Shown piece by piece: positions 1 through 64,000 of a stretch of DNA of 64,000 nt. Each line of letters opens with the position of its first letter. Within the stretch, counting starts at the first letter, position 1. The notes under the pieces were generated by a model. The model made no database searches. It was not told the origin of the DNA and saw only the letters and a list, made by a program, of their open reading frames with translations. Position numbers and translations under genes: made by a program. Source of the stretch: an uncultured Bacteroidales bacterium (GTDB taxonomy: Bacteria; Bacteroidota; Bacteroidia; Bacteroidales; VadinHA17); assembly GCA_963818295.1 (NCBI GenBank), contig CAWFRW010000007.1, forward strand, positions 74,938-138,937. The letters are read 5' to 3'.

Positions 1-470
1 GTGATGAAATCACGAATAAAACTTATGAGCAGCTGAATAAATCATTTATAACGCCATTCGACAGGGAGGATATTCATGAACTCACTGCACATATCGATGA
101 TGTTGTTGATTCAATTAACGGTATCAGCCGGAGGATCTGTCTTTACAAACCAAAAAAACTTATTCCTCTCTATGCAGAGATGGCAGATCTTATCTGTGAA
201 GGTGCAAAAGAGATTGAAACAGCTATTCATTGTCTGAAGGATCCTGTTGCAAACAAAAGGAAAATAACTGATGCATGCGAAAGGGTAAAAGAAATTGAAC
301 ACAATGCTGATGAGCTGTATTTTGCCGGAATTGCTGAATTATTTGAAAAAGAAGAAGATACAAAGGAATTGCTCAAAAACAATAAAATCCTTGAAATCCT
401 TGAAAGATGTGTTGATGAAGAGGAGGATGTTACAGATACATTGAAGGCAATACTCATTAAAATGGCTTAA
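1..470 (+). CDS. DUF47 / PhoU-like phosphate-transport regulator family protein, copy A (5' end cut by window edge)
   Basis: Frame 3 is open from the window edge to TAA 468-470; track ORF 180..470 is its tail. About 90% aa identity over ~155 aa to the C-terminal part of 1731..2381 (FITPFDREDIHELTAHIDDVVDSINGI ... ILERCVDEEEDVTDTLK.ILIKMA). Lies directly upstream of a PiT gene. Confidence 0.8.
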   Translation, partial: DEITNKTYEQLNKSFITPFDREDIHELTAHIDDVVDSINGISRRICLYKPKKLIPLYAEMADLICEGAKEIETAIHCLKDPVANKRKITDACERVKEIEHNADELYFAGIAELFEKEEDTKELLKNNKILEILERCVDEEEDVTDTLKAILIKMA

Positions 471-704
471 GTGAGGCTGACTTACTCAAACTGAATATCA
501 AGCATATCCCGAATATCTGATATAAAACGGAATTAAAACTTAATGATCGAATCATTTTGAGTTTTGTTCCAATCTTATTATTTTGCACCGGTTGATTTTT
601 AAATTTTTGCAAAATATAACTATCACTATGATGTGGAGTTATCACGCAGATTTATTTTCAATTATATTTATTTATTTATAATTTCTGCCTAAAATAACAG
701 ACAG

Positions 705-1697
705 ATGACGATTCTTTATATTGTTGTAGCACTGGTTCTGATTTTTGATTTCTTAAACGGATTTCATGATTCGGCAAATTCAATTGCAACAGTTGTCTCC
801 ACGAAAGTTCTCTCTCCGTTCGCTGCAGTTATAATCGCAGCATTTTTCAATTTTATTGCGTTTACTGTTTTTCCTTTAAAGGTTGCCCATACAATTGGCA
901 AAGGTGTTGTCGATCCGGATGTACTTAATCATGACTGTTATATGCTTCAGCTCTTGTTGCAGCTATTACATGGAATCTTGCTTACATGGTGGTGGGGGCT
1001 TCCCTCAAGTTCATCACACACACTGGTAGGAGGGCTTGTTGGTGCTGCAATTGCACATGCCGGAATTTCATCGATTATTTTTGCAGGACTAATAAAAATA
1101 GTTGCATTTATTTTTATTGCTCCGATTCTTGGAATGGTATTATCCTTCCTTATATCCTCTTTTGTGGTTTATCTTTTCCGTAAATTCACCCCGTCAAATG
1201 TTGACAGGATATTCCGGAGGCTTCAGCTTTTATCATCCTCTACTCTCAGCCTTGGCCATGGAGGAAATGATGCACAGAAATCAATGGGTATAATCTGGGC
1301 AGCATTGATTGTATCAGGACTGGCTACAAAGAATGATCCGATAGCGCTATGGATAATACTGTCATGCCAGACGGCCATAGCACTGGGAACACTTTTTGGC
1401 GGATGGAGGATTGTAAAGACAATGGGGCAGAAGATTACAAAGGTAAAGCCATTTGAAGGATTCTGTTCAGAAACTGCAGGTGCATTAACACTTTTCGGTG
1501 CAACACATTTTGGAATTCCTGTGAGTACAACCCATACAATAACAGGTGCTATTATCGGAGTAGGAGCAAGAAAGGGAGTTACTGCTGTAAAATGGGGTGT
1601 TACTGCAAAAATATTCTGGGCATGGATACTCACAATTCCTGTATCGGCAACCATCGGGGCAACCATGTATTTTTTCTTCAATGCAATTTTTAAATAA
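705..1697 (+). CDS. pit: PiT-family inorganic phosphate transporter, copy 1
   Basis: 330-aa polytopic ORF with PiT signatures GFHDSANSIAT, GLPSSSSHTLVGG, GHGGNDAQKSMG and PVSTTHTITGAIIG. The ORF is open but contains a short out-of-frame stretch at 935-979 (see findings). Confidence 0.85.
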   Translation: MTILYIVVALVLIFDFLNGFHDSANSIATVVSTKVLSPFAAVIIAAFFNFIAFTVFPLKVAHTIGKGVVDPDVLNHDCYMLQLLLQLLHGILLTWWWGLPSSSSHTLVGGLVGAAIAHAGISSIIFAGLIKIVAFIFIAPILGMVLSFLISSFVVYLFRKFTPSNVDRIFRRLQLLSSSTLSLGHGGNDAQKSMGIIWAALIVSGLATKNDPIALWIILSCQTAIALGTLFGGWRIVKTMGQKITKVKPFEGFCSETAGALTLFGATHFGIPVSTTHTITGAIIGVGARKGVTAVKWGVTAKIFWAWILTIPVSATIGATMYFFFNAIFK

Positions 1698-1730
1698 CAG
1701 TAACAAATCCAAAATAAAATATCGACAATA

Positions 1731-2381
1731 ATGAATATAGATAGAATTCTTAAATTTTTTGTTCCAAAAGACCATTCATTCTTTCCGCTTTTTGAAAGTG
1801 ATGCCCACAACCTTGTAAAAGCTGCCTCTCTTCTTCAGGAACTGATGTCCAGTACAGAAAGTCTTGCTTATGAAAGGATCTACAAGGAAATACGTGATGT
1901 TGAACATATCGGTGATGACATCACCAACAAGACATATGAACAACTGAACAAATCCTTCATTACTCCGTTCGACAGGGAAGATATTCATGAGCTTACCGCA
2001 CATATTGATGATGTTGTTGATTCAATAAACGGAATTGCGCGCAGAATATGCCTCTATAAACCAAAGAAGCTTATACCGGTTTATGTTGAGATGGCTGACC
2101 TTATATACGATGGAGCGAAAGAGATTGAAACTGCCATTCATTGCCTCAAGGATCCTGTTGCAAACAAACGGAAAATTACGGATGCCTGCGACAGAGTTAA
2201 GGAAATAGAACACAAAGCGGATGAGCTCTATTTTGCAGGCGTCGCTGAACTATTTGAAAATGAAGAAGATCCAAAAGAATTACTGAAAAATAACAAGATT
2301 CTTGAAATACTTGAGAGATGTGTTGATGAGGAGGAGGATGTAACCGATACTCTCAAGTCTATACTCATTAAGATGGCCTAG
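1731..2381 (+). CDS. DUF47 / PhoU-like phosphate-transport regulator family protein, copy B
   Basis: Intact 216-aa ORF starting 33 nt after the PiT stop. Helical, acidic C-terminus, paralogous to copy A and to 48744..49394. Confidence 0.85.
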   Translation: MNIDRILKFFVPKDHSFFPLFESDAHNLVKAASLLQELMSSTESLAYERIYKEIRDVEHIGDDITNKTYEQLNKSFITPFDREDIHELTAHIDDVVDSINGIARRICLYKPKKLIPVYVEMADLIYDGAKEIETAIHCLKDPVANKRKITDACDRVKEIEHKADELYFAGVAELFENEEDPKELLKNNKILEILERCVDEEEDVTDTLKSILIKMA

Positions 2382-9058: not shown

Positions 9059-10574
9059 TTAGCTTTCCCGTATTCTGTTAAACGCTTTACCCAGACAATT
9101 AATTATATCTGATGCAATTAATGATTCAAAAGATGATTCTGCTGCTGCAATATCGCCTGCAAGTCCATGCAGATACACGCCGGCAACAGCTGCATTAACT
9201 GGTGTCAGGCCCTGTGCAAGCAAAGATAACAAGATTCCTGTAAGAACATCACCACTTCCTGCAGTTGCCATACCCGGATTTCCCGTACTGTTGAAAAATA
9301 CTGTCCCGTCGCTTGTTGTAATTGAAGTAAAGGCACCTTTCAGAATAACAATGCAATTGTGTTCCCTGCTGAATGCCAGCTGTCTGTCAAGCCTTGCAAA
9401 TCCATTATCAGTGCTGCCTGCAAGCCGTTCAAACTCTTTCGGGTGCGGTGTCAGGATAGTGTCAGGTTGAAGTAAAGAGAGCCAGTCTTTATGCATTGAC
9501 AGAATATTGAGGGCATCAGCATCAAGGACAACCGGCCTCCTGCAATTTTTCAGCAGCTGTTGGATTGCATTCTGTGTTTCAGCTCCCGTACCCAAACCGG
9601 GCCCTGCTCCCACAGCGCTGAAATGATCAGTGTTTCCGATATCAGAAACATATTCTGTCGAACGATCCGGTCTTATCATAGCTTCAGGAATCGCACCGGG
9701 CATTACAAGAGCTCCGCAAAAAGGAATATGGCAGGTTAATAATCCTATCCCTGATCTGAGAGCTGCTCCGGCGCCAAGGATACAGGCTCCTATTTTACCT
9801 GAGGATCCCGCGACAAGCAAACCATGACCAAAACTTCCTTTATGGTCAAAGCGTTTTCTCTTTTTCAGCAGAGGCAAAACATCACTGTTGCCTAAAAGGA
9901 TGAAAGGAGATCTGGTATCGCGTATTGCATTATTATGCAAGCCTATGGGCAGGGTGAACCATTCACCTGTGTACCGGAAGTTTTCGGCAAACATGAATGA
10001 AAGCCGGGGAAACTGAAAACAAAGGGTATAATCTGCCCTGACTATAGCTTCAGGGTTATTCATGCTGTTATCTTCACCGAACAATCCGGATGGCATATCT
10101 ATCGAAATCTTCAGAGCCTCTGTTCTGTTTATCTCCTTTATTATACCGGCCGCCAGTCCTTCAGCAGGCCGTGTTAGTCCTGAACCAAATATTGCATCGA
10201 TTATTACATCATCAGTGGAGATACCCGGAAATTGATCGGTACTTTTTATCTGCTTAAGTCTGACATCAGTCGTCTTCAAGAAGTCTTATCCTGTTCTGTT
10301 CCCAGTCTGAAGATGTTTTTTCGGTAAACTGCACATTATATACCTCCACATCGTATCGGTTTGCAGCCAGCATTCGTGCAAGAGCCAGACCGTCACCACC
10401 GTTGTTTCCGGGACCAGTAAAAATAAATACCCTGTGAGAACGCTCAAAACGGGCAATATACCAGTTCAGGAGCTGCTGGGCTGCCCTTTCCATAAGATCA
10501 ATAGAAGCTACCGGTTCATAGCTGATCGTATATTTATCAATTTCCCTTATCTGTTCGCACCTGAATATCTTCAT
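9059..10574 (-). pseudogene. nnr: bifunctional NAD(P)H-hydrate repair enzyme (epimerase + ADP-dependent dehydratase), one frameshift near 10270
   Basis: The YjeF_N part (MKIFRCEQIREIDKYTI…GPGNNGGDGLALAR) is in 10266..10574. The carbohydrate-kinase-like part (…GMATAGSGDVLTGI…) is in 9059..10279. Confidence 0.85.
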
Positions 10575-11383: not shown

Positions 11384-13216
11384 ATGCTAAAGAATCATCC
11401 CAATGGATTACTGGTAGCCTTTCTTCTCAAATATGGGTGAAAGATTTGGATTTTATACAATGATGGCTATCCTTGTTCTTTTTCTCCAGGCCAAATTCGG
11501 ACTTTCAGCTGAAAAAGCCGGGACTATTTACAGCTGGTTCTATTTCAGCATATATGCTCTTGCTCTTTTAGGAGGCATACTTGCTGATGCCACAAAGAAA
11601 TACAAGCTGGTTATTCTGTCCGGAATAATAATAATGTTTGCCGGGTATATTATTATGGCGGTTCCCGGGCATGACTCTCACAATAACTATTGTCGGTCTT
11701 TTCACAATTGCACTGGGGAATGGTTTGTTCAAGGGTAATCTTCAGGCTGTTGTCGGTCAGATGTATGATGATCCAAGATATTCAAAATTCAGGGACTCTG
11801 CATTTATGATCTTTTACATGGGGATAAATGTCGGGGCATTCTTTGCGCCATTTGCTGCAACCGGTATGCGAAACTGGTGGCTGAAAGTGAACGGATTCGC
11901 ACACGATGGCAGTCTTCCGTCACTATGCCATCAGCTCATTAACGGAACACTTACTGACACAACAACACTTCAGCAGCTTGCAGATAAGGTAAGCCTGAGT
12001 GGTCCGGTTACTGATCTTTCAGCCTTTGCAACACGATACCTCGAAGTATTTTCCAGGGGTTACAATTATGCTTTTGGTATTGCAGCCGGTGCTATGGTGA
12101 TCTCTCTGCTCGTTTATATCTTCTTCAGCAGACTTTTTCCAAACAAGGAGAAGAAGGTCACAGAGCTTGTTGAAAAAGTCGATTTCAGTCCAATGGCCCT
12201 CGTATTTGCAGCCGCTGCAATGGTGATAACTGCCTTTGGACTTCATTTTATAAAGAATGTAGGCTGGACATCAGGCTTTGCTTTCGGTCTTTTTGCAGGA
12301 TTCATAACATGGATCATTCTGAGTGCAAAGAAAGAGGAGATGGCAAGAATAGTTGCCCTTGTACTTGTCTTCATTGTTGTTATTTTCTTCTGGATGTCGT
12401 TCCATCAGAATGGACTTACTCTTACGCTTTTTGCCAGAGATTATACAGCCAAACAGGTGGGTCCGTTTACAAATATGTTTTTCACATTACCCTCAATGCT
12501 GGCAGTTGTTGGTGCAATTGCAGGACTGGTGCTGCTCCTTCGCAGGAATATTTCAGGAAAGGCAAGGATCACCGGAGGTATTTTGCTTGTTGCTTGCACT
12601 TGCATATTCCTCATTTCTTCTTACAGGCTTTGATCCTACTACAATTTTAGGCAGGGGCTTAACTCCCTTCGGCTCACAGAATTCAATTTCCCCTGAAGTC
12701 TTTCAGTCGTTTAATCCACTTTTCATTGTAGCACTTACTTTTCCTGTGATGGGAGCATTTGCATGGCTTAATAAAAAAGGGATTGAACCTTCAACACCAA
12801 AAAAGATCGGCATTGGAATGATAATAGCAGCAGTCGGATTTATTGTGGTTCTGATTTCATCAATCGGGCTTCCTTCACCCTCTTCGCTTGCAGGGGCACC
12901 GGTGAACGAGAGCTGACAGGGTATCACCATACTGGCTTATAAGCAGTTACCTCATACTTACAATTGCAGAACTATTCCTCAGTCCAATGGGTCTGTCATT
13001 CGTATCAAAAGTAGCTCCATCGAGGTTCCAGGGATTAATGCAGGGCGGCTGGCTGCTTGCAACTGCAGTCGGAAATAAACTGCTTGTGGTCGGAACAATT
13101 CTATGGGATAAGGTAGCGCTTTCAACACTCTGGATGGTTTTATTGTCTGCTGCCTTGTCTCAGCTGCATTCATATTCTCAATTCTTAAAAGACTGGATAA
13201 AGTCGGTAATGGCTGA
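11384..13216 (+). pseudogene. POT/PTR2-family di-/tripeptide:H+ symporter (at least 5 frame changes)
   Basis: MLKNHPNGLLVAF… shifts into …GERFGFYTMMAIL (POT ExxERFxYY-type motif). Fragments 11433..11738, 11638..12633, 12353..12916 and 12987..13328, plus a terminal frame ending …FIFSILKRLDKVGNG-stop (13214-13216). Confidence 0.8.
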
Positions 13217-13531: not shown

Positions 13532-15966
<2,435 letters not shown>

Positions 15967-17367: not shown

Positions 17368-17980
17368 ATGTATGTAATTTGTTCTGATCTCGAAGGGGTT
17401 TTTGTACCCGAAATATGGATAAATGTTTCAAAACAAACCGGTATTGATGAATTGAAGCTTACTACAAGAGATATAAGCGATTATGATGTATTGATGAAGA
17501 GAAGACTGGAACTGCTTGACGAACACAATCTTACACTTCATGACGTTCAGAGGGTCATATCGCCAGCTCAAACCACTTCCCGGTGCAATTGAATTTGTAG
17601 ACTGGGCCCGCTCATGCACACAGCTGATAGTTGTTTCCGACACATTTATAGAATTTGCCGATCCGCTTATAAGACAACTTGGAAGACCTACCCTGTTATG
17701 CCACCATCTCACCACCGATGGTGACGGAAAAATAACAAATTACAACCTCCGGCAAAAAGATGCAAAGAAGAAGGTAGTAGAGTCTCTGCAAAATCTTAAT
17801 TACAAAGTCATTGCAATCGGGGATTCCTATAATGACCTGAACATGCTCAGAAAAGCTGAACTTGGAATACTTTTTAATGCCCCTCAGAATATTAAAGATG
17901 AAAACACGGACCTTTTATCTGTGAATTCATTCGATGAACTCAGGGAAGTAATAACAAGACATCTCAACGGGGAGATATAA
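17368..17980 (+). pseudogene. thrH: phosphoserine phosphatase / homoserine phosphotransferase ThrH (one frameshift near 17560)
   Basis: Collinear, from memory, with Pseudomonas ThrH: CSDLEGVFVPEIWI…TTRDISDYDVLMKRRLELLDEH…; then …LKPLPGAIEFVDW…SDTF.EF..PL.RQLG.PTLLCH…LRQKD…IAIGDSYNDLNML. Confidence 0.75.
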
Positions 17981-18125
17981 ACAAAACATCATATATATCA
18001 TATCTACATATCAGAAGGGCAACTTCAATTTGGCTTACTTCAACCCTTCATTTTGACCGATATTGCATATTCATATGCAGTTAATAGAACAGATAATCAT
18101 GGTCGTAAATTGATTTTCTTCGTTT

Positions 18126-18180
18126 ACCCCGACCCCATGGGGAGCGAAGAAAATCGATTTTCTCCCCTTGGGGCCGGGGT
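18126..18180. repeat. 55-nt near-perfect palindrome (likely bidirectional terminator)
   Basis: ACCCCGACCCCATGGGGAG…centre AGAAAATCGATTTTCT…CTCCCCTTGGGGCCGGGGT, followed by an A-run. Lies after thrH. Confidence 0.8.
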
Positions 18181-45789: not shown

Positions 45790-45826
45790 GTTTCTAAAGT
45801 ATAAGATATAAAATCAGGTAAGGTGA

Positions 45827-45877
45827 GTCGGAAGTCGGAAGCAGGCTTCGGTCTTCGGCTTCGGACTTCCGTCTTCC
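45827..45877. repeat. 7-nt stuttered inverted word island inside the kdp operon
   Basis: GTCGGAA GTCGGAA GCAGG CTTCGGT CTTCGGC TTCGGAC TTCCGTC. The left and right halves are near reverse complements, so it can form a hairpin. It fills most of the 87-nt kdpF-kdpA spacer. Confidence 0.85.
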
Positions 45878-46041
45878 TAAAATTTTTCCGGATGCAATAA
45901 TGTATATATTAAATAACCCAGAATAAAGAGAGCAATTATGCCTCCGGTAATATAGCTTATGTGACTGTTGGATACGGCCTCGCCCGGATGAACAGGAACT
46001 ACCCCTAAGGGCATGAACAAAGCTGCAAATTTTGTTTTCAT
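45877..46041 (-). CDS. kdpF: K+-transporting ATPase subunit F (start uncertain; only the last ~26 codons look KdpF-like)
   Basis: Unlisted short ORF ending …ITGGIIALFILGYLIYTLLHPEKF-stop (45877-45879), a single TM with the KdpF-type tail, directly upstream of kdpA. In-frame ATGs at 46041 and 46014. Confidence 0.5.
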   Translation of the reverse strand: MKTKFAALFMPLGVVPVHPGEAVSNSHISYITGGIIALFILGYLIYTLLHPEKF

Positions 46042-46163
46042 TTTATCTTGCTTTTAAACAATCTTTAATGCAGCAAAATTGCACCGGAAGTTATAATGCT
46101 TTTATAAGAAGTAAGAGTTAAACCATAAAGATTTCATAAATATTGAAACGCCATTAATACATA

Positions 46164-46405
46164 GGGGCTGTAGAAAAAGTCTTTTTAACCGCAAAGCTTT
46201 GTCAGCCGAAGCTTCAGCGAAGGCTGGGACGCTAAGGTTTTCACAAAGTGCGCAAAGATAATACATTGATATAAAGATCTTTGCGACCTTTGCGTAATTG
46301 CCACCAGCGCAATCTGGCCCCTGCGCTAATGAATAGCCCACCGGGCTATTTCTTCACGCTTGGTCCCCTCTGCGGTTAATGGATTTTGACTTTTTCTACA
46401 GCCCC
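46164..46405. repeat. 242-nt composite structured element bounded by 18-nt perfect inverted repeats
   Basis: GGGGCTGTAGAAAAAGTC (46164-46181) and GACTTTTTCTACAGCCCC (46388-46405), extended by AACCGCA/TGCGGTT. The interior is a chain of small hairpins (GCAAAGAT…ATCTTTGC, ATTGC…GCAAT, AATAGCCC…GGGCTATT). It shares GACCTTTGC and CGGTTAATGGATTT with 53284-53308. Confidence 0.75.
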
Positions 46406-46460
46406 ACAACAATTTTACATTGCATCGTAGGGCCACAACATGGCTTTGTCGACATTTCAT

Positions 46461-48467
46461 TCAGTCAACCCTGATTGGAAAAATGACAATCGGAATACCA
46501 AATTTAAAGAATCTCTTCTGAATAGAAAAAATTGTATGATTATGCAGCAGTTTTGAAAGGTAGAATGTTTTGGAGAAAACCAGCTGTCCGCCAAAGAAAG
46601 CTGCTCCCGATAACCTGGGTCTTAGTCTTTTCACTATGCTGTAAATTTCATTCACTGGATCAGTTCCGATTGTCCAGATGCTTTTTCCGTAAAGGCCAAA
46701 CTGATTGGCGACATTAACATATTTTTCACCATCCTCCCTTACTTGTCTTTTAAAATGTTCCAGTTCCTCAGTCCCCCTGTAAATCTTGGAATTTAGAATA
46801 CCAATTCTTACAAACACAATATTGTTATAAACACCTTTAAAATTTTCGAGAATTCTAGGAAGGTGTACAATCCTGTTCCCCAAAACCGCTTACTAAAATA
46901 ATTGCAGTTTTTCCTTCCTTGTTAAATGGGACTTTTTTCAGATTCCTGTCTTCACAAGGTCGCTGACCAATTAGTTTTTCAATCTCATTAAATGCGTTTA
47001 ATCTTAGTTTCTGAAGTTTGAGAGCAGTTTTGAAATAATGACGTTTAATATTTATTGCCAGCAGGACCAGCAAACCTGTAATTACTATAGTTACCCAGCC
47101 ACCCTGTCCGAATTTCAGAATTATTACTGAGACCAGGATAAAGGAGGTAAGAATCAGACCAATGCCATTTATTGCTAGTTTTCGCTTCCATGATACTTTC
47201 TTTCCTCTCATCTCCCACCAATGTTTCACCATTCCAACCTGTGAAATAGTAAATGTTATGAACACATTAATACTATAAAGAACAACCAGCAATGCAACAG
47301 ATCCTTTTGAAAAAACCATCAGAATAAAAGCTCCTGATGCCCATTAATAAAACTCCATTCATTGTTACCAGCCGGTCGCTCAGGGAAGCAAATCTTTTAG
47401 GCAACCAGTGATCAATTGCCATATTTGCCATTATTCTCGGGCCATCAATAAATCCTGTTTGTGCAGCAACAAACAGAAAGTGCAGCTTCAGAAATCAGAG
47501 TAATGAGGACAAAACTTCTAGACCAGAAATATCCCCATCCGGCAGTCAGATTATCAAGTAATACTGCATTTAAAGTTTTATGGGTATCGAGCTGAACATT
47601 AAAAAGCATATAGCAGATCATTAATCCCAGCACCATAAATGAGAGTGAGATCACCATCAGAAACATTGTTTTACGTGCTGTTGCAACTTTAGGTTCTCGC
47701 AGAATTGGCATGCCATTACTTACAGCTTCGATTCCTGTATAGGTTCCGGCACCCATACTATATGCCCGGAGAATTATAAAGAATGTAGCAAAAAAACCAA
47801 ACTGAGATACTGTTGAATGTAATTTCACTGGAAGTCTGACTGGCAACTGCTGCAAAATTTGAGGCATGAATAAAAATTCCATATAAAATGGCAATCACAT
47901 GTGTTAGTAATAAAGACTATAAATATTGGAGTAAGAGAAAGTACTGATTCCTTTAACTCCTCTTAGATTTAAAAGAATCAGAAAACATACTCCTACAAGG
48001 GCAAAAGAAAGTTTGAAGGGTTGCCATTCAGCCGGGAAAAAACTAAATAGGGCATCAGCACCACTTGAGACTGAAAGCGTAATTGTAAGAACATAATCGA
48101 TTATAAGGGCAGAACCAGAGATCATTCCTGTAGTTGGTGATAATAGTTTACTGCCAACCAGATAACCTCCGCCTCCATGTGGAAAAAGACGTGACTATCT
48201 GGTTGTAACTTGAACTTATGATTATAATTGTAAAAACTGTGCCAAGGGCTACAAAAATAGCCAGACTTGTATGGCCCTGTAAATTTCGAAAGCCTCTTCA
48301 GGACCATAACATGATGATGAAATGCCATCCGCTCCAAGACCAATCCATGCAAAAAATGCTACAAGTGTTAATTTATGAAATAATCCTTTGTCCTGAATAG
48401 TTTTTGCTTTGCCAATAAAGGTATTTTTCAGTTTCTCATTGAACGAAGAGCTTACAGTCTGGTCCAT
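46461..48467 (-). pseudogene. APC-superfamily transporter with C-terminal cytoplasmic domain, KimA-like K+ importer candidate (at least 6 frame changes)
   Basis: Fragments 48249..48467, 47904..48125, 47445..47894, 46855..47319 and 46461..46883, plus unlisted pieces. Reconstructed stretches LFPHGGGGYLVGSKLLSPTTGMISGSALIIDYVLTITLSVSSGADA, LRAYSMGAGTYTGIEAVSNGMPILREPK and the tail LLHNHTIFSIQKRFFKFGIPIVIFPIRVD parallel B. subtilis KimA as I remember it. Confidence 0.65.
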
Positions 48468-49400: not shown

Positions 49401-50646
49401 ATGATTCTGTTCTTCCTGACAAGCGGTCTTTTCCTTGGCTGGTCGCTCGGGGCAAATGATGCCTCCACATGTGTTCGGTTCAGCTGTGGGTTCAAAGATG
49501 GTAACATTCAGAAAAGCGGCAATAATTGCTTCAGTATTTTTCATTCTGGGAGCCGTTCTTCAGGGTTCAGGGACATCTCATACTCTTGGTAAGCTTGGAG
49601 CCGTGAATGCACTCGGCGGATCATTCACAGTTGCACTGGCGGCTGCGATTACAATCTACATGATGACAAAGTTTGCGATGCCTATATCGACAACCCAGGC
49701 TATTGTCGGAGCAATTATCGGATGGAACTTTTTTACCGGAAACCATACAGACAGCAAGACCCTGTCTACCATTGTGATGGCATGGATGGCTGGTCCTGTA
49801 ATGGGTGCGATATTCGCAATCATCCTGTATATAATCGTAAAGATATTCAAGAAATCGATGAAGATACATCTGATACGATTTGAGTCATTTATAAAGACAG
49901 GATTAATTGTTGTCGGCGCTTTCGGCTCTTACAGTCTTGGAGCCAATAACATTGCCAATGTTATGGGAGTCTTTCTGCCTGCATTCAATCTTAATGATCT
50001 CGATCTGGGCATCTTTACGCTGAACTCAGCACAACAGCTATTCCTCCTTGGCGGAATTGCAATTGCCGCAGGAATAATTACATATTCACGGAAAGTGATG
50101 AATACCCTGGGAAACAATATTTTAGAACTCTCTGCCGAAGCTGCCCTTGTTGTTGTTCTGGCACAGGCGATTGTACTTTTTATTTTTTCATCAACCGGTC
50201 TGTCGACCTTTGTTGTCAATCACGGCCTCCCTCCTATTCCAATGGTCCCGGTTTCAAGCTCACAGGTAATTGTAGGCTGTATTATCGGGATTGGTCTTTA
50301 TAAGGGTGGCAGAAACATAAATTTCAGAATCCTTGGCGAGATCGGGCTGGGCTGGATCATATCACCTCTTTCATCAGGTTTACTTACATTTTTCATGCTG
50401 TTCTTCATGAAGAATATATTCGGTATTGATGTCGGATTTAATGCCGGTGATCCGGTTGCTGTTGCTGCCCATTTAAATAATCCGATGATGGCAGGTCAGT
50501 CAGATATATCGGATATAGTCAAATATCTCCTTCTCGGATTGTTTGTCTTTGGAGCTCTTGGACTTGCATATTATATCCTTCTTGAAAACAAAAAAAGAAG
50601 AGAGCTGCAAAAATCAGAAGCCAAATTCTGGAAGAATATGAAATGA
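49401..50646 (+). pseudogene. pit: PiT-family inorganic phosphate transporter, copy 2 (one frameshift near 49460)
   Basis: MILFFLTSGLFLGWSLGANDAS (49401..) shifts into …VFGSAVGSKMVTFRKAAIIA… (49435..50646). The second half has …YSLGANNIANVMG…. Confidence 0.8.
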
Positions 50647-50681
50647 GATCACCATCACTTCTTTCATGACCAACCCCCAAA

Positions 50682-50697
50682 TCCCCCAAATGGGGGA
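50682..50697. terminator. GC hairpin TCCCCC-AAAT-GGGGGA in a convergent spacer
   Basis: Preceded by a duplicated word CCCCCAAAT x2 (50674-50691). Between the PiT copy 2 stop and the M49 peptidase stop. The T-run is poor. Confidence 0.35.
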
Positions 50698-50816
50698 CTT
50701 TAGCCTCCTCTTTACAGTGATATATAAAAGATATCAGAGCTTCCGAATTCTTTATCTGAGTAGATATTAGCCCTCCTTCAGGGGGGTTGAGGGGTTGCCT
50801 GACAAAAAATTAGATT

Positions 50817-52906
50817 TTACTGTTTAACTCCATTCTTCCTCCGTGAAACTATTTTTACCGCTGTGGATCTCCAAAGAGTTGTATTACGTTTACAGCACAA
50901 AAATGAATAATTCTTCCCGTAATCCATCATCTGTCCGAGATAATCATCCGTATACTTAACCACTACATCCGAAATAGTCCCATTTGTATCATAAACCGGT
51001 GATAATACTGGATTTACAAAACCTGTATATGGAGCCAGATGTAGCTTTTCGTAACGATCAAGAATTTCAGCATGAAGCACCGGATCAATCTTCACTCCGT
51101 AGTCCTCAATCAGTTTTTTACCTGAGACAAAATCGCCTTCCGATTTAATCCGCTGGATCTCCATGAGTAATTCTCCGAAAAGCGTTCTGAGCCTGTCATA
51201 ATCATTTATCTTCACAGATGTCTTGCCGTCATGATTAATGAATTCAACGACATTTTCACTTTTTCCCCGGCAATAAGCCCACTGTGAAATTACCGACCTG
51301 CAGCGCATATGTGCCTCTTCAATATCTTTTCCTCGCTTTATTCTGACTATCTGTGTAAGCAAGCCATTCCTGAGGTAAGAGTCATATTCAGCCTCTGCAG
51401 CTTCACGTCCGGGCAGCAGTCCCAGTTCTGTTATCTTATTGTCCATTATGAAATATAGCGCAAACAGGTCTGCCCTTGCCTCCTCAAGCGTCGAAGCATA
51501 ATTTTTCAAGGCATTCGGATCAGTACCTTCAGCCAGTTTGCCGCTGGCGTGTCCGATACACTCATGAAGATCTGTATGAAGGGCATCAGCTATAGCGGCA
51601 TATTTTTTACTCCTTGCTACTTCATCTGCATCAGCTGCAAACTCTTCAAGGAAACCATTCCCCTGAGATGATACATCGTATGCATTTGTTATATTGGCCA
51701 GTGTAACGGATTTGGATCCGACCTCTTTTCTTATCCAGTCGGCATTGGGAAGATTTATACCCAGAGGAGATGCAGGATAACAATCTCCTCCGAGCATTGC
51801 AATATTTATTACTTTGGCAGCAACACCTGTAACTTTCTCTTTTTTGTACTTCGGCTGGATAGGTGAATTATCTTCAAACCACTGGGCATTCGAAGTTATA
51901 ATTCTTGTCCTCTTCGTCGCTTCGAGGTCTGTATAATCAACTATCGCCTCCCATGTTGCCTTCATTCCAAGCGGATCTTCATAGTTCTCAATAAACCCAT
52001 TTATATAATCTATCATGGAATCGCTGTTCTTCACCCAGGCTACATTGTATTCATCCCATTTCCTGAGATCTCCCGATTTATAATATTCAATCAGAAGACC
52101 AAGTTCATTCTTTTGGGCAAGTGTCTCAGCTACTGATGCCGCCTTTTCAAGCCATTTAACAATTACCTCAATCGCCTGACCATACTTACCATTTAAACTG
52201 TAGACCTCTTCGGTCAGCTTCTCCCTTGGCCTTTACAATTTTTGAATTCAGTCCCAGAGAAACAGGATGAGGATCCATTGGGATTGGTTTTTCCTGCATA
52301 AAACTCCTCAACCTCCTTCTGTGTAACACCTTCATAAAAGTTGGATGCCGATTCGGCAACCATATCCGCTCCCTCCCTCTGTTCAACCTTTCTGGGATAA
52401 AGCTTCTCGCTCGAATATAACCGGAGACAATTCTGATATCAGCTGATCTAGTAGACTGACCGGAAGAAAGCGGAAGTTTCACGGGATCGCTTTCCTTCAC
52501 CAGCCGGGCAAAATATTCTTCTGAAAAACCCGGCTTCAGTCTTGTCTCTCGAATAGTGGTGATGAATTCCGTTAGCAAAGAATACCCTTTTAGCATAGAT
52601 GAGAAATGAATTGTAATCGGCAGACTCCCTGTCGCCTGAATAGCTTTCAATAATCGCTTCAAGGGTCTTTCTTATTTTAAGGTTATACCTGAAGTTCTGA
52701 TCCCACAGGATATCCCGGCCTGAAAGTGCAGCCTGACTCAGATAATATAAATACTCTTTTTCATTAAGTGCAAGCGATTCAAATCCGGGAAGCTTATATT
52801 TAAGAACCCTCATATCATCGAACTGTTCAACGAAGTATACGAAATCATCTTTGATTTCAGCTGTGGGTAGTTCATTATTGCTATGAATCATGCTCAGTGT
52901 TACCAT
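50817..52906 (-). pseudogene. M49 (dipeptidyl-peptidase III) family metallopeptidase (at least 3 frame changes in the 5' third)
   Basis: HECIGHASGK (HExxGH) and EEARADL are in the intact 50817..52034 block. N-terminal fragments are 52448..52906 and 52186..52662. Confidence 0.8.
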
Positions 52907-53620: not shown

Positions 53621-54022
53621 ATGAAAAAGATGAGTCCTGTTGTACATTTTGAGTTGCCGGCAGCAGACAGAATGCGGATGGCAAAATTTTACACAAAGGT
53701 ATTCGGCTGGCAGACGGAGATGCTCGGAGAGGATATGGGCAACTATGTTACTGCTTCAACAACATCAACAGATGCAAATGGACGTCCCTCAACCCCGGGA
53801 GCAATCAACGGAGGTTTTTATCCGGTCAGCGCCGATGAACCTGCACAGTATCCATCTGTAGTAATAGCTGTTGATGACATAAAAGAGGCTGCAGCAGATG
53901 TGGCAAAATCAGGCGGCACCGTACTGGGAGAACCCGTAATGATACCGGGGGTAGGACTGTATGTTTCATTCATTGACACCGAGGGCAACAGGTTAAGTAT
54001 TCTTCAACCGTCAATGGGATGA
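53621..54022 (+). CDS. VOC (glyoxalase/bleomycin-resistance) family protein
   Basis: Intact 133-aa ORF. The VHFELPAAD…FYTKVFGW…GGFY…VDDI…GG…PGVG…F.D.EGN pattern is typical of small VOC proteins. Confidence 0.75.
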   Translation: MKKMSPVVHFELPAADRMRMAKFYTKVFGWQTEMLGEDMGNYVTASTTSTDANGRPSTPGAINGGFYPVSADEPAQYPSVVIAVDDIKEAAADVAKSGGTVLGEPVMIPGVGLYVSFIDTEGNRLSILQPSMG

Positions 54023-54141
54023 AGTCAGATAGCAGGAGAAGCTGATAATATTTAAATTATTCGCTCACAGACTCTGTTCTTCGTGTGTCAGGATTGTTTT
54101 TTTTTATAATTTTAAATCAGTCCTTAACCAGTACATCATAC

Positions 54142-55404
54142 ATGAAGAAGAGAATACCATTTTGCCATTTTACACCTCTTGTATCAATTTTATTTTTACT
54201 TTATGCCAATCCCCGGCAGACACTTGCAGCAGAGGCTGATCATAAACTAAATGTTCTTGTAATCTTTGCTCATCCTGATGAAGGAGAGATCTATGCAGGA
54301 GGAATCTCTGCCATCTATTCGAAAATGGGTCACAGTGTCAGGTTTCTCTCACTCACAAATGGTGATGCCGGCCACTGGTCGATGAATCCCGATTCACTTG
54401 CCAAACGTCGCTACAATGAAGCAATGGAAGCAAAGAAGATTCTGGGGCTGGCAGATTATGAAATTCTTGATTTTCATGATGGAAAACTGAAAAACTCACC
54501 TGAAATACAAAAAATTGTAGCCAACAGGATAGAGAAGTGGAAGAGTGATATTGTGCTTCTTTATTATCCAATTGTAACAGAACCGGGCGGACATAATGAC
54601 AATATGCAGGCGGGGCTGATCGCAAGGGATGCGGCATCACTGGTTAAAATGGAAAAGATGCCTCTTTTCCTCTACATGCGTGACTATTTCACAACCGGAT
54701 TTTCTCACATTCCGGATATCGCCTTTAACATTGAAGATGTCTGGGATATAAAACTTCTCGCGATGAAAGCCCACGAATCGCAGGTGGTTGAAGCTAATCC
54801 TCATGCCGATGGCATTCTTGATGAAGTGTTAAAGAGTGAAACGAAACGACAGGAGTATCTTTTTTACAATTCATATCCCTTCAGCAGGATCACACCTGAT
54901 ATTAAACTGGCAATTAAAAAATGGTATGGATCGGATAAAGCCGAACAGATCAGCTGGGTTGAAGCTTTTGAATTCGCAGAAATAGGAAGACAAATCAATA
55001 ATCAGGCTATTGCTGAATTATTCCCTATGCTCCCGGCTCCTTATACCTTACAAGGAAAAACAGCGTGGCTGGATACGGGGATTGATCTTGTGAGCGGACA
55101 GGGAGTAGAAATCCGGGCGGAAGGTGAGGTTGTGTGGAAGAAAGAGGGATATAACTGGTGCGGTCCGGATGGCAATTCACCATATACACGCTGGGGCAAA
55201 CGACCAGTCCTGGGTTCAGGTGTCGGCGCACTGATCGGTAGAATAGGGCAATCTTCAGAGTATACGTTTTTTATCGGCAATAATCTGTCTATGGAGGCCT
55301 GCGCAGACGGACGGCTTTTCATTGGCATCAATGATGACAACACAAGTGACAATGCAGGCTTTTTTAGTGTCTGGATCAAAAGGATTTTAATACAAAAACC
55401 ATGA
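54142..55404 (+). CDS. secreted PIG-L/LmbE-family deacetylase fused to a C-terminal lectin-like beta-sandwich (PA-IL/LecA-like)
   Basis: The track ORF starts at GTG 54085; ATG 54142 (MKKRIPF…signal) is more plausible. LVIFAHPDEGEIYAGG LmbE motif. C-terminal ~115 aa: …WLDTGIDLVSGQGVEIRAEGEVVW…IGINDDNTSDNAGFFSVWI. Confidence 0.7.
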   Translation: MKKRIPFCHFTPLVSILFLLYANPRQTLAAEADHKLNVLVIFAHPDEGEIYAGGISAIYSKMGHSVRFLSLTNGDAGHWSMNPDSLAKRRYNEAMEAKKILGLADYEILDFHDGKLKNSPEIQKIVANRIEKWKSDIVLLYYPIVTEPGGHNDNMQAGLIARDAASLVKMEKMPLFLYMRDYFTTGFSHIPDIAFNIEDVWDIKLLAMKAHESQVVEANPHADGILDEVLKSETKRQEYLFYNSYPFSRITPDIKLAIKKWYGSDKAEQISWVEAFEFAEIGRQINNQAIAELFPMLPAPYTLQGKTAWLDTGIDLVSGQGVEIRAEGEVVWKKEGYNWCGPDGNSPYTRWGKRPVLGSGVGALIGRIGQSSEYTFFIGNNLSMEACADGRLFIGINDDNTSDNAGFFSVWIKRILIQKP

Positions 55405-56567
55405 AATCATCAATAACCCGTCGCGATTTTCTCATAAAATCATCATTGCCTGCAGTCGCCTCGCTTATCTCCCCGTCAATCATCGGTAGTGTCTCAACAG
55501 GTATGCCGGATGCCCAGGAGATGAAAAGAAAATGCCGGATGAAAGTCGGATCTGATACCGACAAGCTGCCTTCCGAAGTGAAAAAACAGGGTGCTTTTGC
55601 AGTTCTTGATTATCTCCATGCTAGAGGATTTGACGGAGCTTTTTTCAGGCTTATGCTTGATCTGAGCCCGACTCTCGATCATGGTGAACTTAAGGAGGTT
55701 AAAGCTCATGCTGATTCACTCGGATTATTTCTTGAAGCAGGAATTGGATGGGTCAATCCGTATAATACACCTGAAAGACCGGAGATCCGCAGATTCGGAA
55801 ATGGAGATTACCGCCTCGCTGTCGAAAAAATGATTTCAGCAGCACGTATCATCAATTGCACTGAACTATGGGCCGTATCAGCCCACTCAATCCATGGTGA
55901 CCCGTTTTATGTAGCATACGACAGATTCAGAACAGATGTTACGTGGAACGACCAGCTTGATGCAATCGTAAAATTTATCGGCCTGCTGGCCCCGATGCTG
56001 AGAGACCTTGGTTGCAGGATTAATCTTGAAACACATGGCGACGAAACATCATTTGAAGCGATCAGAATTATTGAAAAATCGGGCAAGGATATTGTCGGCA
56101 TAACACTCGATACAGGCAACCTGCCACTGCAGGCAGATGTCCCGCTAAGTTCGATCAAAAGGATGGCTCCATATGTACATCTGACCCATTGTAAGGATGG
56201 TATCCTGTTTCGTACCGATGAAGGGCTTAACCAGCAGATCCGGAGTCTTGGCGATGGGATAACTGACTGGAAATCAGCTCTTGAAATTTTAAACGACCAT
56301 AATCCTGATCTTCATCTTTGTATCGAGGAGTACCGTGCTGAAAATCTCCTGTTCTGGTCAACTCCAAAGTACAGTAAATCATATCCCGATCTTCAGTGTA
56401 AGGATATTGCCGAATTTGACAGATTAACAGGAATATGCGATCAGAAAATCAGGGAAGGAAAAATTCCGGGAGTCGGGGAGTTCCGGAAGATTCCTTTCGG
56501 CGAACCACAAAGGGATGCCTCATATATAAAAGGGCAGCGTATCTCCGAAATGTTATTGAGACGATAA
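55401..56567 (+). CDS. Tat-signal sugar phosphate isomerase/epimerase (xylose-isomerase-like TIM barrel)
   Basis: Intact 388-aa ORF with the ITRRDFLIKSSLPAVA Tat motif and an …INLETHGDE… TIM-barrel metal-site pattern. Its ATG overlaps the upstream stop (ATGA at 55401-55404). Confidence 0.75.
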   Translation: MKSSITRRDFLIKSSLPAVASLISPSIIGSVSTGMPDAQEMKRKCRMKVGSDTDKLPSEVKKQGAFAVLDYLHARGFDGAFFRLMLDLSPTLDHGELKEVKAHADSLGLFLEAGIGWVNPYNTPERPEIRRFGNGDYRLAVEKMISAARIINCTELWAVSAHSIHGDPFYVAYDRFRTDVTWNDQLDAIVKFIGLLAPMLRDLGCRINLETHGDETSFEAIRIIEKSGKDIVGITLDTGNLPLQADVPLSSIKRMAPYVHLTHCKDGILFRTDEGLNQQIRSLGDGITDWKSALEILNDHNPDLHLCIEEYRAENLLFWSTPKYSKSYPDLQCKDIAEFDRLTGICDQKIREGKIPGVGEFRKIPFGEPQRDASYIKGQRISEMLLRR

Positions 56568-61481: not shown

Positions 61482-61482
61482 A

Positions 61483-62913
61483 TCAGACGGGTAAAATTTT
61501 AACTGCATCCTGAATTAACTGAACAAATATGGCCGGAGGATTGAGTCCAAGCCAGATAGCTGTAAACATCAGCAGATACTGAGTCAGTGATTCCCATGGG
61601 TTTATCTTTGGGATCTTTGATTCATCCAATCCGGGAACAGGCAGAAACAGGATCTTCAGGATATTCTTTCCAAAAGCCCAGATAACAATTGTAAGCAACA
61701 ATAAAACAATTGCCAGAAGGATAATATAATTTGCTTCAAAGAGTGATCTGAAAATCAGAAATTCACTCACAAACAGACCTGAAGGAGGCATTGCTGTTGC
61801 GCTTATAAAACCAAGAAGCAATACAATAGCCCCGGCAGGATTATATTTAAAATAATTCCCTACATGCTGAATGCTTTTGCTCTGAAATGTCCTGTATAAC
61901 TGGTTAAACTGAAAAAACAGGCCGGATTTTACAAAGGCATGCAAAATAATATGCAGAACAGCTGCATAATAACCAACTCCTCCGGCAGCAATTCCAAGCA
62001 TTACAATACCCATATGCTCAATACCCGAATAGGCAAACATTCTTTTTATATTCATAACCTTTGTCATATAGACAGTTGCTACAAATATTGAGAGGATAGC
62101 TGCTATAAAGATTACAAGGTTTGCCCAATGAAAAAGTGAAGTATGGGAAACAACAGCATAAAATCTGAAGATTCCGACAAAACCAAGATTCATGAGGACG
62201 CTTGCAAGCAAAGCACCTGCCGGAGCCGGTGCTTTATCCTTGGCATCGATACCGGCAGTATACATTGGGACCAAGTCCAAGTTTTGCGGTAAATCCTGTA
62301 AAGATAAAGAGGAAAGCCAGCCTGAGCCAGAATGGATTAAGCTTGTCTCTGTAATGCCATCAGGTTTGAGAAGGAGAGATCATTCGATCCGGCATGCTGG
62401 AGAGAAAGACTGAGAAAAAGTATGCCGATGAAAACAAATGTAATGCTTATTGCACAAATAAATACATATTTCCATGTTCCCTCAAGGGCAAGTTTATTCC
62501 TGTGATGATAAATAAGCATTGAGGCCGAAAGTGTTGTCATCTCGGTAAAAATCCAGATCACTGCAATATGATTGGCAAGATATGCTGCCGTAATTGAGGT
62601 TATAAGAAATACAAGCGCTGCAAAATATATGGCCCGCGACTCAGGTGTTTCATCGTGACGCATTATATACAGATAGCTGTGAAAAAGTGCCGGGATTGTA
62701 ATAATGCTCAAAGTCATAAGGAGCAGTAATCCAAGAGAATCAAATGTAAAATATTCAAGAACATGTGCTCTTATAATTGTAACATGCAAATATTGTAAAA
62801 CAGGTCTGAAGTATTCCGAAAATAACAATGAGAATATTGTTTACAACAGTGTTCCTGTTGGCAAAAATCAGTCCTGAAATTACAAATGCGCTTATAAGAT
62901 AGATCCCGGTCAT
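61483..62913 (-). pseudogene. NuoL/M/N (HyfB/F)-type antiporter-like membrane subunit (at least 2 frame changes)
   Basis: ATG 62911-62913 (MTGIYLISAFVISGL…). Fragments 62337..62828 and 61483..62280 (…FAYSGIEHMGIVMLGIA…ILHAFVKSGLF…). Confidence 0.8.
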
Positions 62914-62924
62914 TTTTTTCTTGT

Positions 62925-63557
62925 TTAATAATCTTTCAAATTGCTGAGCTGATCAACATCAACATCTTTAAATACATCACCGATTTTGTTCAGGAAGATC
63001 CCCAGTATTAAAACACTTGCAAATACATCAAGCATGATACCAAGGTTTACAAGGTTCGGCATTTCGTTCCCGACAGCAAGTGAAAGGACAAAAACACCGT
63101 TTTCAATCATCAGATAGCCCATAACATGGGTAATTATCTTTTTTCTTGAAGCGATGAAGTACAGTCCTGTGAAAAGAGTCGACAATGATACAATGAAGAA
63201 GATCTTATCGAGGTGAGTATCCTGTATTGAATTTGCAAGCAAAACTGTTACCACAACGATCATTGTAATAATTATCAGGGAGACAAAGTGTGGCAGATAG
63301 GGTTCAGTCTCCCTTGTAATTTTGTTTCTCTTTATCAGATAGCCTAAAAACATTGGGACGGCAAGTGCCCTGAATACAATTGTCTCAAGCAGGATCAGTA
63401 CAAGGTTCCAGGTCTGAATATCCTTAAGCTGAAGGAAAGTGACGCCAAAAAGAATAAATCCCTGCAGGGCAAGAACCCTTACATAAGTAATTATCCTGTT
63501 CGCAATTGAAACATATAAAAGGCTAATAATGAATATGATCAGAAGTACGTTTGTCAT
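62925..63557 (-). CDS. HyfE-like small polytopic membrane subunit
   Basis: Intact 210-aa ORF with about 7 TM helices, positioned as hyfE is in Hyf-type clusters (…GYLMIENGVFVLSLAVG…). Confidence 0.65.
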   Translation of the reverse strand: MTNVLLIIFIISLLYVSIANRIITYVRVLALQGFILFGVTFLQLKDIQTWNLVLILLETIVFRALAVPMFLGYLIKRNKITRETEPYLPHFVSLIIITMIVVVTVLLANSIQDTHLDKIFFIVSLSTLFTGLYFIASRKKIITHVMGYLMIENGVFVLSLAVGNEMPNLVNLGIMLDVFASVLILGIFLNKIGDVFKDVDVDQLSNLKDY

Positions 63558-63567
63558 TGTGAATTAT

Positions 63568-64000
63568 TTAAACAAATTTTTCCAGAACAAGCAATACACC
63601 AAGAAAGATTAAAAAGCTGACCGATGAGAGAGCCAGAATAAACTGAGGATTATGGTTCATCCTGAAGCGTGCCATGAATGATTCTATCAATCCTACAGTA
63701 ACTGCAAACAATGCCTGAATAAACAGGTAAAGTGGAATCAGCAAGGGAGAGTGACAATGATCCGATAAAAAAATCTGCAATAATTGCCCCGTACATTGCA
63801 AACTTAAGATAACCGGCTGTAAGTATAAGTCCAAGATCGAATCCGCTGTTGTCCAGAACCATTACTTCGTGAATCATTGTTAATTCAAGATGGGTTTTTG
63901 GGTCATCCAGGGGCATCCTGCTGTTCTCGATCATAGCAATCAGAACAAGTACACCTGCAGCAAGCCCTCCAAGAGTATATGTAATTGATGATCCAAGATG
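63568..64000 (-). pseudogene. NuoH/HycD/HyfC-like membrane subunit (3' part only; runs off the window; one frameshift near 63830)
   Basis: …ENSRMPLDDPKTHLELTMIHEVMVLDNSGFDLGL… (63650..63934) and the tail …FMARFRMNHNPQFILALS… (63568..63834). Confidence 0.75.

What the first reader, a model, noticed from the sequence alone, without database searches (positions are those of the whole stretch)
1..64000. Bimodal gene integrity: about 33 of 52 genes are frame-broken, yet three multi-kb blocks are flawless
Full-length family proteins can be rebuilt only by changing frame in thrA (at least 4 times), the POT transporter (at least 5), the C25 peptidase (at least 8), kdpD (at least 7), the kimA-like gene (at least 6) and many others. 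That is roughly one indel per 300-500 nt in those genes. By contrast, 18299-21441 (3.1 kb), kdpA (1.7 kb) and 53621-56567 (2.9 kb) are uninterrupted. The lesions are frame changes, not in-frame stops. Those I could localise sit in short homopolymer or simple runs: A5 at 41272-41276, TT where TTT is expected at 23549-23550, A5 at 33163-33167, and CCCTTCCC at 8903-8910. Homopolymer consensus error is the most economical explanation, but a uniform error rate cannot give such long clean blocks. The alternatives are patchy polishing or coverage, a chimeric consensus, or real pseudogenisation. Under real pseudogenisation an intact kdpA beside broken kdpB/C/D would be odd.
Basis: partly seen in the sequence, partly recalled or inferred. 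Interest (0 to 1): 0.6.

Follow-up and report, generated by a model that had tools for sequence, protein, structure and literature searches.

The report
Patchy insertion errors in draft genome
The broken genes in this window are almost certainly uncorrected single-base insertion errors in a draft genome assembled from environmental DNA, so the pattern is a data-quality warning, not biology.

Summary
35 of 49 genes in the window carry frameshifts, 118 in all (about 1 per 490 nt), and only 3 in-frame stops. The named clean blocks are clean.

The homopolymer explanation does not hold. About 80-85% of lesions are one extra base in non-repeat sequence. Sites are depleted, not enriched, near runs of 4 or more bases (18% vs 25% background, P=2e-6).

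The damage is genome-wide: 1,043 frameshifts in 455 genes, 890 of them extra bases, and 18 stops. It hits essential genes (ileS, secA, gyrA). Marker completeness is 67% for a full-sized 4.4 Mb genome.

Broken genes are as conserved as intact ones (83.1% vs 83.6% identity to the nearest relative). Close relatives have them full-length. In a 1,353-nt public contig (95% identical), the only two indels are the two predicted extra bases.

The patchiness is real. A two-rate model fits far better than one rate. Segments at about 0.3 per kb (near the method's background of 0.13) alternate with segments at about 3 per kb. Mean segment lengths are 5-7 kb, and rpoB and rpoC are clean.

Best reading: stochastic long-read insertion errors whose correction depended on local read depth or short-read support.

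Real pseudogenisation is very unlikely. Interest is low.

The parts
1..64000 (.). Whole window: 118 frameshift lesions (92 extra-base class, 26 missing-base class) in 35 of 49 genes; 3 in-frame stops
   Evidence: Frameshift-aware alignment to orthologues of four relatives. Between-relative control gives 0.13 calls per kb.
17566..21595 (+). Clean segment: multihaem cytochrome c (NapC/NirT-like, 18299-19798) and a DoxX-domain protein (19900-21441). No lesions in 3.6 kb of aligned coding sequence.
43933..46463 (-). Clean segment: kdpA (44104-45789), the kdpF region and an interspersed repeat. No lesions.
   Evidence: An identical KdpA occurs on a JGI wetland contig.
53621..56567 (+). Clean block of three open ORFs: glyoxalase-fold protein, PIG-L/LmbE deacetylase, xylose-isomerase-like TIM barrel. 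These are non-essential accessory genes.
   Evidence: Pfam. The 420-aa PIG-L protein is identical in Logan assemblies of ERR12035931 and ERR15459707. The two larger genes gave no DNA match in the 30 relatives searched.
49470..52217 (.). Clean segment: most of PHO4 and the C-terminal 1.3 kb of dipeptidyl-peptidase III
52218..52541 (-). Burst of five single-base insertions within about 320 nt, in the N-terminal part of dipeptidyl-peptidase III (gene 50880-52907)
   Evidence: All four references place the five events at the same positions to within 3 nt. The JGI contig with identical KdpA has this gene open for 660 aa.
24585..28437 (+). C25-family peptidase gene: 14 frameshifts (13 extra-base class) and 1 stop
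37775..40442 (-). kdpD: 7 frameshifts. Read through, it is 87.5% identical to the G006 KdpD.
46464..48447 (-). kimA-like APC transporter: 9 frameshifts against the G007 orthologue (90% identity), directly beside the clean kdpA
13532..15964 (+). thrA (aspartokinase/homoserine dehydrogenase): 4 frameshifts, at about 13667, 14061, 14407 and 14664
   Evidence: Same four sites against 12 full-length 808-823-aa homologues (89-91% identical) from other assemblies.
11384..13211 (+). POT-family peptide transporter: 5 frameshifts
62762..62762 (-). Directly verified extra base: a G on the coding (minus) strand, in ACAT[G]TTCTT, in the NuoL/M/N-like gene. Not in a homopolymer.
   Evidence: blastn alignment to Logan contig L141 (ERR12035932), 95.1% identical. 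It coincides with the predicted site 62760-62764.
62353..62354 (-). Directly verified extra T (GCAT[T]ACAG) in the same gene
   Evidence: It coincides with the predicted site 62351-62355.
10271..10275 (-). The single extra base that breaks the Nnr (NAD(P)H-hydrate repair) gene
   Evidence: A full-length 504-aa JGI protein is 98.6% identical to the read-through, with one frameshift.

Best explanation
The frame breaks are errors left in the consensus of a long-read (or hybrid) metagenome assembly. They are not mutations in the organism.

Shown:
- The residual error is mostly one spurious extra base at an arbitrary position.
- The error rate switches between two regimes along the contigs. About 40% of coding sequence is essentially error-free (about 0.3 calls per kb, close to the method's background of 0.13). 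The rest carries about 3 indels per kb, with local bursts.
- Segments average 5-7 kb and ignore gene boundaries.

Inferred:
- The clean segments are places where enough reads, or accurate short reads or short-read contigs, supported the consensus. The dirty segments are places where they did not.
- The insertion-rich, context-free spectrum fits the raw error profile of PacBio continuous long reads better than that of Nanopore reads.
For: 1. Genome-wide spread. 455 orthologue pairs (567 kb) give 890 extra-base and 153 missing-base frameshifts and only 18 stops, on every well-sampled contig. Rates range from 0.26 to 2.6 per kb (contigs with at least 5 genes).
2. Essential single-copy genes are broken. 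ileS has its middle in another frame. secA and gyrA are each split between reading frames, and neither has a piece that reaches its family cut-off.
3. Marker completeness is 67% for a 4.43 Mb, 33-contig genome. Several same-genus relatives of similar size (4.4-5.0 Mb) score 99-100%.
4. Wrong mutation spectrum for biology. 85% are +1 insertions and they are depleted near homopolymers. Stops are not in excess: 0.03 per kb vs 0.06 per kb in the between-relative control.
5. No relaxed constraint. Broken genes are 83.1% identical to G006 and intact genes 83.6% (P=0.52).
6. Close relatives are intact.
   - Contig L141 (95.1% DNA identity) differs by exactly two indels in 1,353 nt, and both are the predicted extra bases.
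   - Nnr is 98.6% identical and full-length, and GGT is 95.9% identical and full-length.
   - The window's fragments of thrA, the Gfo/Idh/MocA oxidoreductase, the DnaQ-like gene, GGT and Nnr each cluster at 90% identity or more with full-length proteins.
   - A JGI wetland contig with a 100% identical KdpA has DPP3, PHO4 and kdpB open across 8 of the window's frameshift sites.
7. Region-wise patchiness.
   - The two-state model gains 144 log-likelihood units, with rates of 0.31 and 2.98 per kb.
   - The rate in neighbouring genes predicts a gene's own rate (rho=0.35, P=2e-14) better than conservation does (rho=-0.14).
   - 20-kb bins range from 0.17 to 4.0 per kb.
8. Published raw error profiles: PacBio about 8% insertions vs 3% deletions, Nanopore about equal. 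Rare metagenome members are often too thinly covered to polish (proovframe preprint, doi 10.1101/2021.08.23.457338).
Against: - The platform and the cause of the patchiness are therefore inferred.
- No same-strain DNA could be read. The JGI contig and two Logan contigs gave no DNA, and two metagenome scans found nothing.
- The closest DNA comparator is 95% identical, so it is a sister population, not the same strain.
- More conserved genes have slightly fewer lesions (rho=-0.14, P=0.0035), and rpoB and rpoC (8.1 kb) are flawless. Selection would also predict this, though extra read recruitment to conserved genes and alignment noise in divergent genes explain it too.
Confidence: 0.93

Rival explanations
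1. Homopolymer-type consensus error: run lengths are miscalled, as in Nanopore assemblies.
For: A few lesions lie next to A5 or C3 runs, e.g. near 41274, 33172 and 8911.
Against: - Window: a run of at least 4 bases lies within 9 nt of 21.5% of sites vs 25.3% background.
- Genome: 18.2% vs 25.0% for the 890 extra-base sites (odds ratio 0.67, P=2e-6).
- 47 of 64 well-aligned inserted bases are not next to an identical base, though gap placement in those alignments is somewhat arbitrary.
- Insertions outnumber deletions about 6 to 1, whereas a run-length error would mostly shorten runs (my own knowledge).
- The homopolymer spectrum of G000 equals that of G006.
Confidence: 0.03
2. Real, recent, massive pseudogenisation of accessory genes in a lineage undergoing genome decay, with essential genes such as rpoB, rpoC and kdpA spared.
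For: - rpoB and rpoC are intact.
- There is a weak negative correlation between conservation and lesion rate.
- 7 distinct long genes (8 reference alignments) are intact vs 0.19 expected.
Against: - Essential ileS, secA and gyrA are broken.
- Clean blocks in the window encode dispensable genes: glyoxalase, PIG-L, a cytochrome c.
- There is no excess of stops and no large deletions. 455 of 465 aligned orthologues passed the filters of at least 60% identity and 80% coverage.
- The bias is towards insertions, while bacterial mutation is deletion-biased (established knowledge).
- Up to 14 lesions sit in one gene with no drop in amino-acid identity.
- Lesion rate follows position and contig rather than gene.
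Confidence: 0.02
3. Chimeric consensus of co-occurring strains: indel differences between strains are merged into a mosaic.
For: - Sister populations exist in other public assemblies, at 95% DNA identity and with identical KdpA and PIG-L proteins.
- The JGI contig lacks the kimA-like gene.
Against: Strains would have to carry frame-breaking indels themselves. All relatives and sister contigs examined have open frames at these sites. Merging intact alleles gives substitutions, not single extra bases.
Confidence: 0.02

Closest known systems
Residual indel errors in long-read (meta)genome assemblies that truncate predicted proteins, as described in the proovframe preprint (doi 10.1101/2021.08.23.457338) and in a nanopore metagenome assembler comparison (PMC7423617)
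   Same: - Frameshifts without stops, genome-wide.
- Lowered marker completeness.
- Orthologues can be recovered by frameshift-aware alignment.
- Dependence on coverage and polishing.
   Different: - Here the spectrum is about 85% single-base insertions and is depleted at homopolymers. This is unlike the usual Nanopore homopolymer-deletion pattern.
- The error switches sharply between near-zero and about 3 per kb on a 5-7 kb scale.
PacBio continuous-long-read raw error profile (about 8% insertions, 3% deletions, 2% substitutions)
   Same: Insertion-dominated. The lesions here show no sequence-context preference; that PacBio continuous-read errors are largely context-independent is my own knowledge, not in the cited text.
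   Different: The platform of this assembly is unknown. The rate here (about 0.3% in dirty segments) is that of a partly corrected consensus, not of raw reads.
Reductive-evolution genomes rich in pseudogenes (e.g. Mycobacterium leprae, Sodalis glossinidius; from my own knowledge)
   Same: A large fraction of genes is interrupted while neighbours stay intact.
   Different: Those genomes show stops, deletions, sequence decay and spared essential genes. Here there are none of the first three, and essential genes are hit.

Membership tests
Assembly or consensus indel artefact | Lesions spread over the whole assembly, including indispensable single-copy genes | tested here: met
   1,043 frameshifts in 455 genes on all well-sampled contigs. 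ileS, secA and gyrA are split across frames. Completeness is 67% at full genome size.
Assembly or consensus indel artefact | Lesions absent from the closest independent sequences of the same or a sister population | tested here: met
   L141 has exactly the two predicted extra bases as its only indels. The JGI contig has open genes. Full-length proteins at 96-99% identity exist.
Assembly or consensus indel artefact | No sign of relaxed selection in broken genes | tested here: met
   Identity to G006 is 83.1% for broken and 83.6% for intact genes (P=0.52). Stops are at or below the control rate.
Assembly or consensus indel artefact | Lesions disappear in raw-read pile-ups, and lesion rate tracks read depth | not testable with these tools
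Homopolymer run-length error (Nanopore type) | Indels concentrated in homopolymer runs and mostly deletions | tested here: not met
   Sites are depleted at runs of 4 or more (odds ratio 0.67, P=2e-6). 85% are insertions. The run-length spectrum is unchanged.
True pseudogenisation or genome decay | Mix of nonsense, frameshift and deletion lesions, with essential genes spared and divergence raised | tested here: not met
   18 stops vs 1,043 frameshifts. 455 of 465 orthologues passed the identity and coverage filters (at least 60% and 80%). Essential genes are broken. Identity is equal in broken and intact genes.
Programmed +1 frameshifting or quadruplet decoding | A shared slippery or stop-adjacent motif at shift sites | tested here: not met
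   No 3- to 5-mer is enriched within 9 nt of sites after allowing for multiple tests. The best is ACATG, 9 vs 2.1 expected, nominal P=2e-4. Aligned contexts are heterogeneous.

The most novel reading that the evidence does not exclude
The extra bases are real. On this reading, the lineage has a replication or repair defect that produces context-free +1 insertions, and it is caught at the very onset of genome decay, with a few regions protected.
Probability: 0.01. Interest if true: 0.8.

Novelty: not a real feature. Interest (0 to 1): 0.1.

Why it matters
- This assembly is the one held for its species in the genome collection searched here. About two thirds of its genes in this region are mis-translated by standard gene callers.
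- Any claim of gene loss, truncated domains, small ORFs or missing pathways in this genome must first be checked against frameshift-aware alignments. That includes the other notes made on this window.
- The error signature is a useful diagnostic for similar assemblies: insertion-rich, not at homopolymers, and switching between clean and dirty segments of a few kb.
- It also shows that "indels sit in homopolymers" should be tested, not assumed.

Tried and rejected
2. Same-species DNA:
   - Two exact or degenerate kdpA patterns in metagenome contigs found nothing.
   - The JGI contig (3300075153) and the Logan contigs of ERR12035931 and ERR15459707 that carry identical proteins gave gene tables but no DNA.
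   - Seven exact look-ups of intact window proteins found no other contig.
   - Only L141 gave DNA.
3. A search with the read-through DPP3 protein found nothing closer than 82% identity. The nearest KdpA other than the window's own is 94% identical, on a 2-kb contig.
4. Motif search around the lesions for methylation-type or slippery motifs such as GATC or CTGCAG: nothing significant.
5. rRNA as an independent non-coding check: G000 has no 23S rRNA match.
6. Rfam and tRNA scans of the window: nothing found.
7. Frameshift correction guided by protein databases, as a cause of the bimodality: rejected by inference. Nearly all the broken genes have close homologues in public data and would have been corrected too.
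8. The accession search turned up only a paper that names JGI 3300075153 as a wetland surface sediment co-assembly.
Full report
**Source**

The window is G000:C7:74938-138937, from a 4.43 Mb assembly of 33 contigs. Marker completeness is 67% and contamination 3.3%. It belongs to an uncultured Bacteroidales genus. The nearest species-level genome held (G006) is 74-81% identical in DNA and syntenic across almost the whole window. ORFs of at least 300 aa cover only 36% of the window, against 64-76% of the syntenic stretches of four relatives. Across the assembly's own contigs this figure ranges from 0 to 69%.

**Checking the observation**

I wrote a protein-to-DNA dynamic-programming aligner that allows frame changes. 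I aligned the intact orthologues of G006, G018, G010 and G007 to the window.

- Events seen with at least two references number 107 in 49.4 kb: 85 of the extra-base class, 22 of the missing-base class, and only 3 in-frame stops.
- Adding genes with one reference gives 118 frameshifts. 35 of 49 genes are broken.
- Counts per gene are thrA 4, POT transporter 5, C25 peptidase 14, kdpD 7 and the kimA-like gene 9.
- The blocks 18299-21441 and kdpA are full-length and free of lesions.
- 53621-56567 holds three open accessory genes. Its PIG-L protein is letter-for-letter identical to a protein in two other public assemblies.
- The same method run between relatives.13 frameshifts per kb with no insertion bias, so the window's 2.0 per kb is about 15 times background.

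**Are the lesions in homopolymers?**

No.

- In the window, a run of at least 4 bases lies within 9 nt of 21.5% of sites, against 25.3% of random coding positions.
- Genome-wide, the 890 extra-base sites are significantly depleted near such runs: 18.2% vs 25.0%, odds ratio 0.67, P=2e-6.
- DNA alignments of the window with up to four relatives (three or four per site) show one extra base in ordinary sequence, for example CCCGGG[C]ATGAC.
- In 47 of 64 well-aligned cases the inserted base is not next to an identical base, although gap placement in these alignments is somewhat arbitrary.
- The homopolymer-length spectrum of G000 is the same as that of G006.
- No short motif is enriched at the sites.

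**Error or biology?**

Using 617 ORFs from 853 kb of G006 as references, 455 orthologues in G000 (567 kb) carry 890 extra-base and 153 missing-base frameshifts and 18 stops. Five lines of evidence point to error.

1. Essential single-copy genes are hit. The middle of ileS is in another frame, a second class-I tRNA-synthetase gene is in four pieces, and secA and gyrA are split across frames. This fits 67% marker completeness in a genome of normal size.
2. Stops are not in excess: 0.03 per kb, against 0.06 per kb in the control.
3. Genes are not decayed. Broken genes are 83.1% identical to G006 and intact genes 83.6% (P=0.52). One gene has 14 lesions and still 79.5% identity.
4. The spectrum is 85% insertions, whereas bacterial mutation is deletion-biased and run-associated (established knowledge).
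5. Sister sequences are intact.
   - Logan contig L141 from run ERR12035932 (1,353 nt, 95.1% identical) encodes an identical 210-aa protein. It differs from the window by 64 substitutions and exactly two indels. Both are extra bases in the window, at 62762 and 62353, exactly where the aligner had placed frameshifts.
   - An 8,655-nt contig of JGI 3300075153, a wetland sediment co-assembly, carries a 100% identical KdpA. It has DPP3 open for 660 aa, PHO4 for 414 aa and kdpB for 559 aa. These span eight of the window's frameshift sites.
   - The window's fragments cluster at 90% identity or more with full-length proteins.
   - A 504-aa Nnr protein is 98.6% identical with one frameshift in the window. 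A 562-aa GGT is 95.9% identical with three. Twelve full-length ThrA proteins all give the same four sites.

**Is the integrity really patchy?**

- Within the window the evidence is modest. The largest clean gap is 3,630 coding nt (P=0.03). 14 genes are intact against 8.0 expected (P=0.014). Six genes of at least 1.1 kb are intact against 1.1 expected (P=6e-4).
- Genome-wide it is strong. The dispersion index is 2.1. 147 genes are intact against 81.5 expected. Eight alignments of at least 2.4 kb, covering 7 distinct genes, are intact against 0.19 expected. These include rpoB and rpoC, 8.1 kb together.
- A two-state Poisson hidden Markov model beats one rate by 144 log-likelihood units. It gives 0.31 and 2.98 frameshifts per kb. 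Mean segment lengths are 4.8 and 7.1 kb, and 41% of coding sequence is in the low state.
- The low rate is close to the method's background, so those segments are essentially error-free.
- A three-state model is a little better, and same-sign events are somewhat bunched. One example is five insertions in about 320 nt of DPP3.
- Rates differ between contigs and between 20-kb bins, from 0.17 to 4.0 per kb.
- A gene's rate is predicted better by its neighbours (rho=0.35, P=2e-14) than by its conservation (rho=-0.14, P=0.0035).
- In the window, clean segments ignore gene function and gene borders. kdpA is clean, the adjacent kimA-like gene has nine lesions, and DPP3 is clean for 1.3 kb and then has five lesions.

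**Mechanism**

What is shown is a region-wise, insertion-rich, context-free consensus error. The cause is inferred.

- The spectrum resembles the raw error profile of PacBio continuous long reads, quoted as about 8% insertions, 3% deletions and 2% substitutions. For Nanopore the quoted insertion and deletion rates are about equal. Polishing fails for thinly covered metagenome members.
- With random insertions, a majority consensus removes them steeply as depth rises. Depth that varies on the scale of read length would then give clean and dirty stretches of a few kb. It would also give differences between contigs.
- An alternative technical route is a hybrid assembly, or short-read polishing that reached only part of the genome. 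That would explain why the clean class is so close to zero.
The lack of any 23S rRNA in G000, where relatives have two tandem operons, hints at reads or scaffolds that did not span about 11 kb of repeat.

**Comparison and verdict**

This is the well-known problem of indel errors in long-read assemblies, with a less usual signature: insertions rather than homopolymer deletions, and sharp patchiness. It is not a biological feature.

- Real pseudogenisation, programmed frameshifting and strain-chimeric consensus were each tested against their defining features and failed.
- Interest is low, except as a caution for every other reading of this genome.

Noticed in passing
window 46157-46407: An interspersed repeat of about 175-250 nt with 18-nt terminal inverted repeats (GGGGCTGTAGAAAAAGTC ... 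GACTTTTTCTACAGCCCC). blastn gives 40 full or partial matches in G000, including the query itself, on at least ten of its contigs, and copies at 70-97% identity occur in genus relatives. It looks like a miniature transposable element. No Rfam match.
   Followed up: partly
window 18098-18211: A GC-rich palindromic element of about 100 nt, just upstream of the clean cytochrome c block. There are few copies in G000 but dozens at 84-94% identity in relatives G018, G007, G016 and G010.
   Followed up: no
window 46464-48447: The kimA-like transporter gene lies between kdpF and PhoU here. In G007 and G016 it also lies beside the kdp genes. It is missing from that position in G006 and in the JGI wetland contig that carries an identical KdpA. 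This is a strain-level presence/absence difference.
   Followed up: partly
window 59202-64000: In the hydrogenase-like complex, the cysteine-less motifs that earlier notes report are also present in the intact G006 orthologues (LAESIAGDSVVGH, RQVSAAGDNSCELE, GTDAISGGIF, VPGNPVHP). They are therefore not sequencing artefacts, even though the window copies carry about 11 frameshifts.
   Followed up: partly
G000 whole genome: No 23S rRNA match in G000, although three of the four relatives searched (G006, G018, G004) have two tandem operons.
   Followed up: no
G000 contigs C29 and C11: These contigs have higher GC (0.44 vs 0.41) and much better ORF integrity (69% and 54% covered by long ORFs). Possible causes are higher coverage, different polishing or mis-binned DNA.
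   Followed up: no
window 693-1692: This PHO4 gene is an uninterrupted ORF, yet alignment to G006 suggests three single-base insertions within about 50 nt (930-981) that together restore the frame. If so, lesions can hide inside open ORFs.
   Followed up: no
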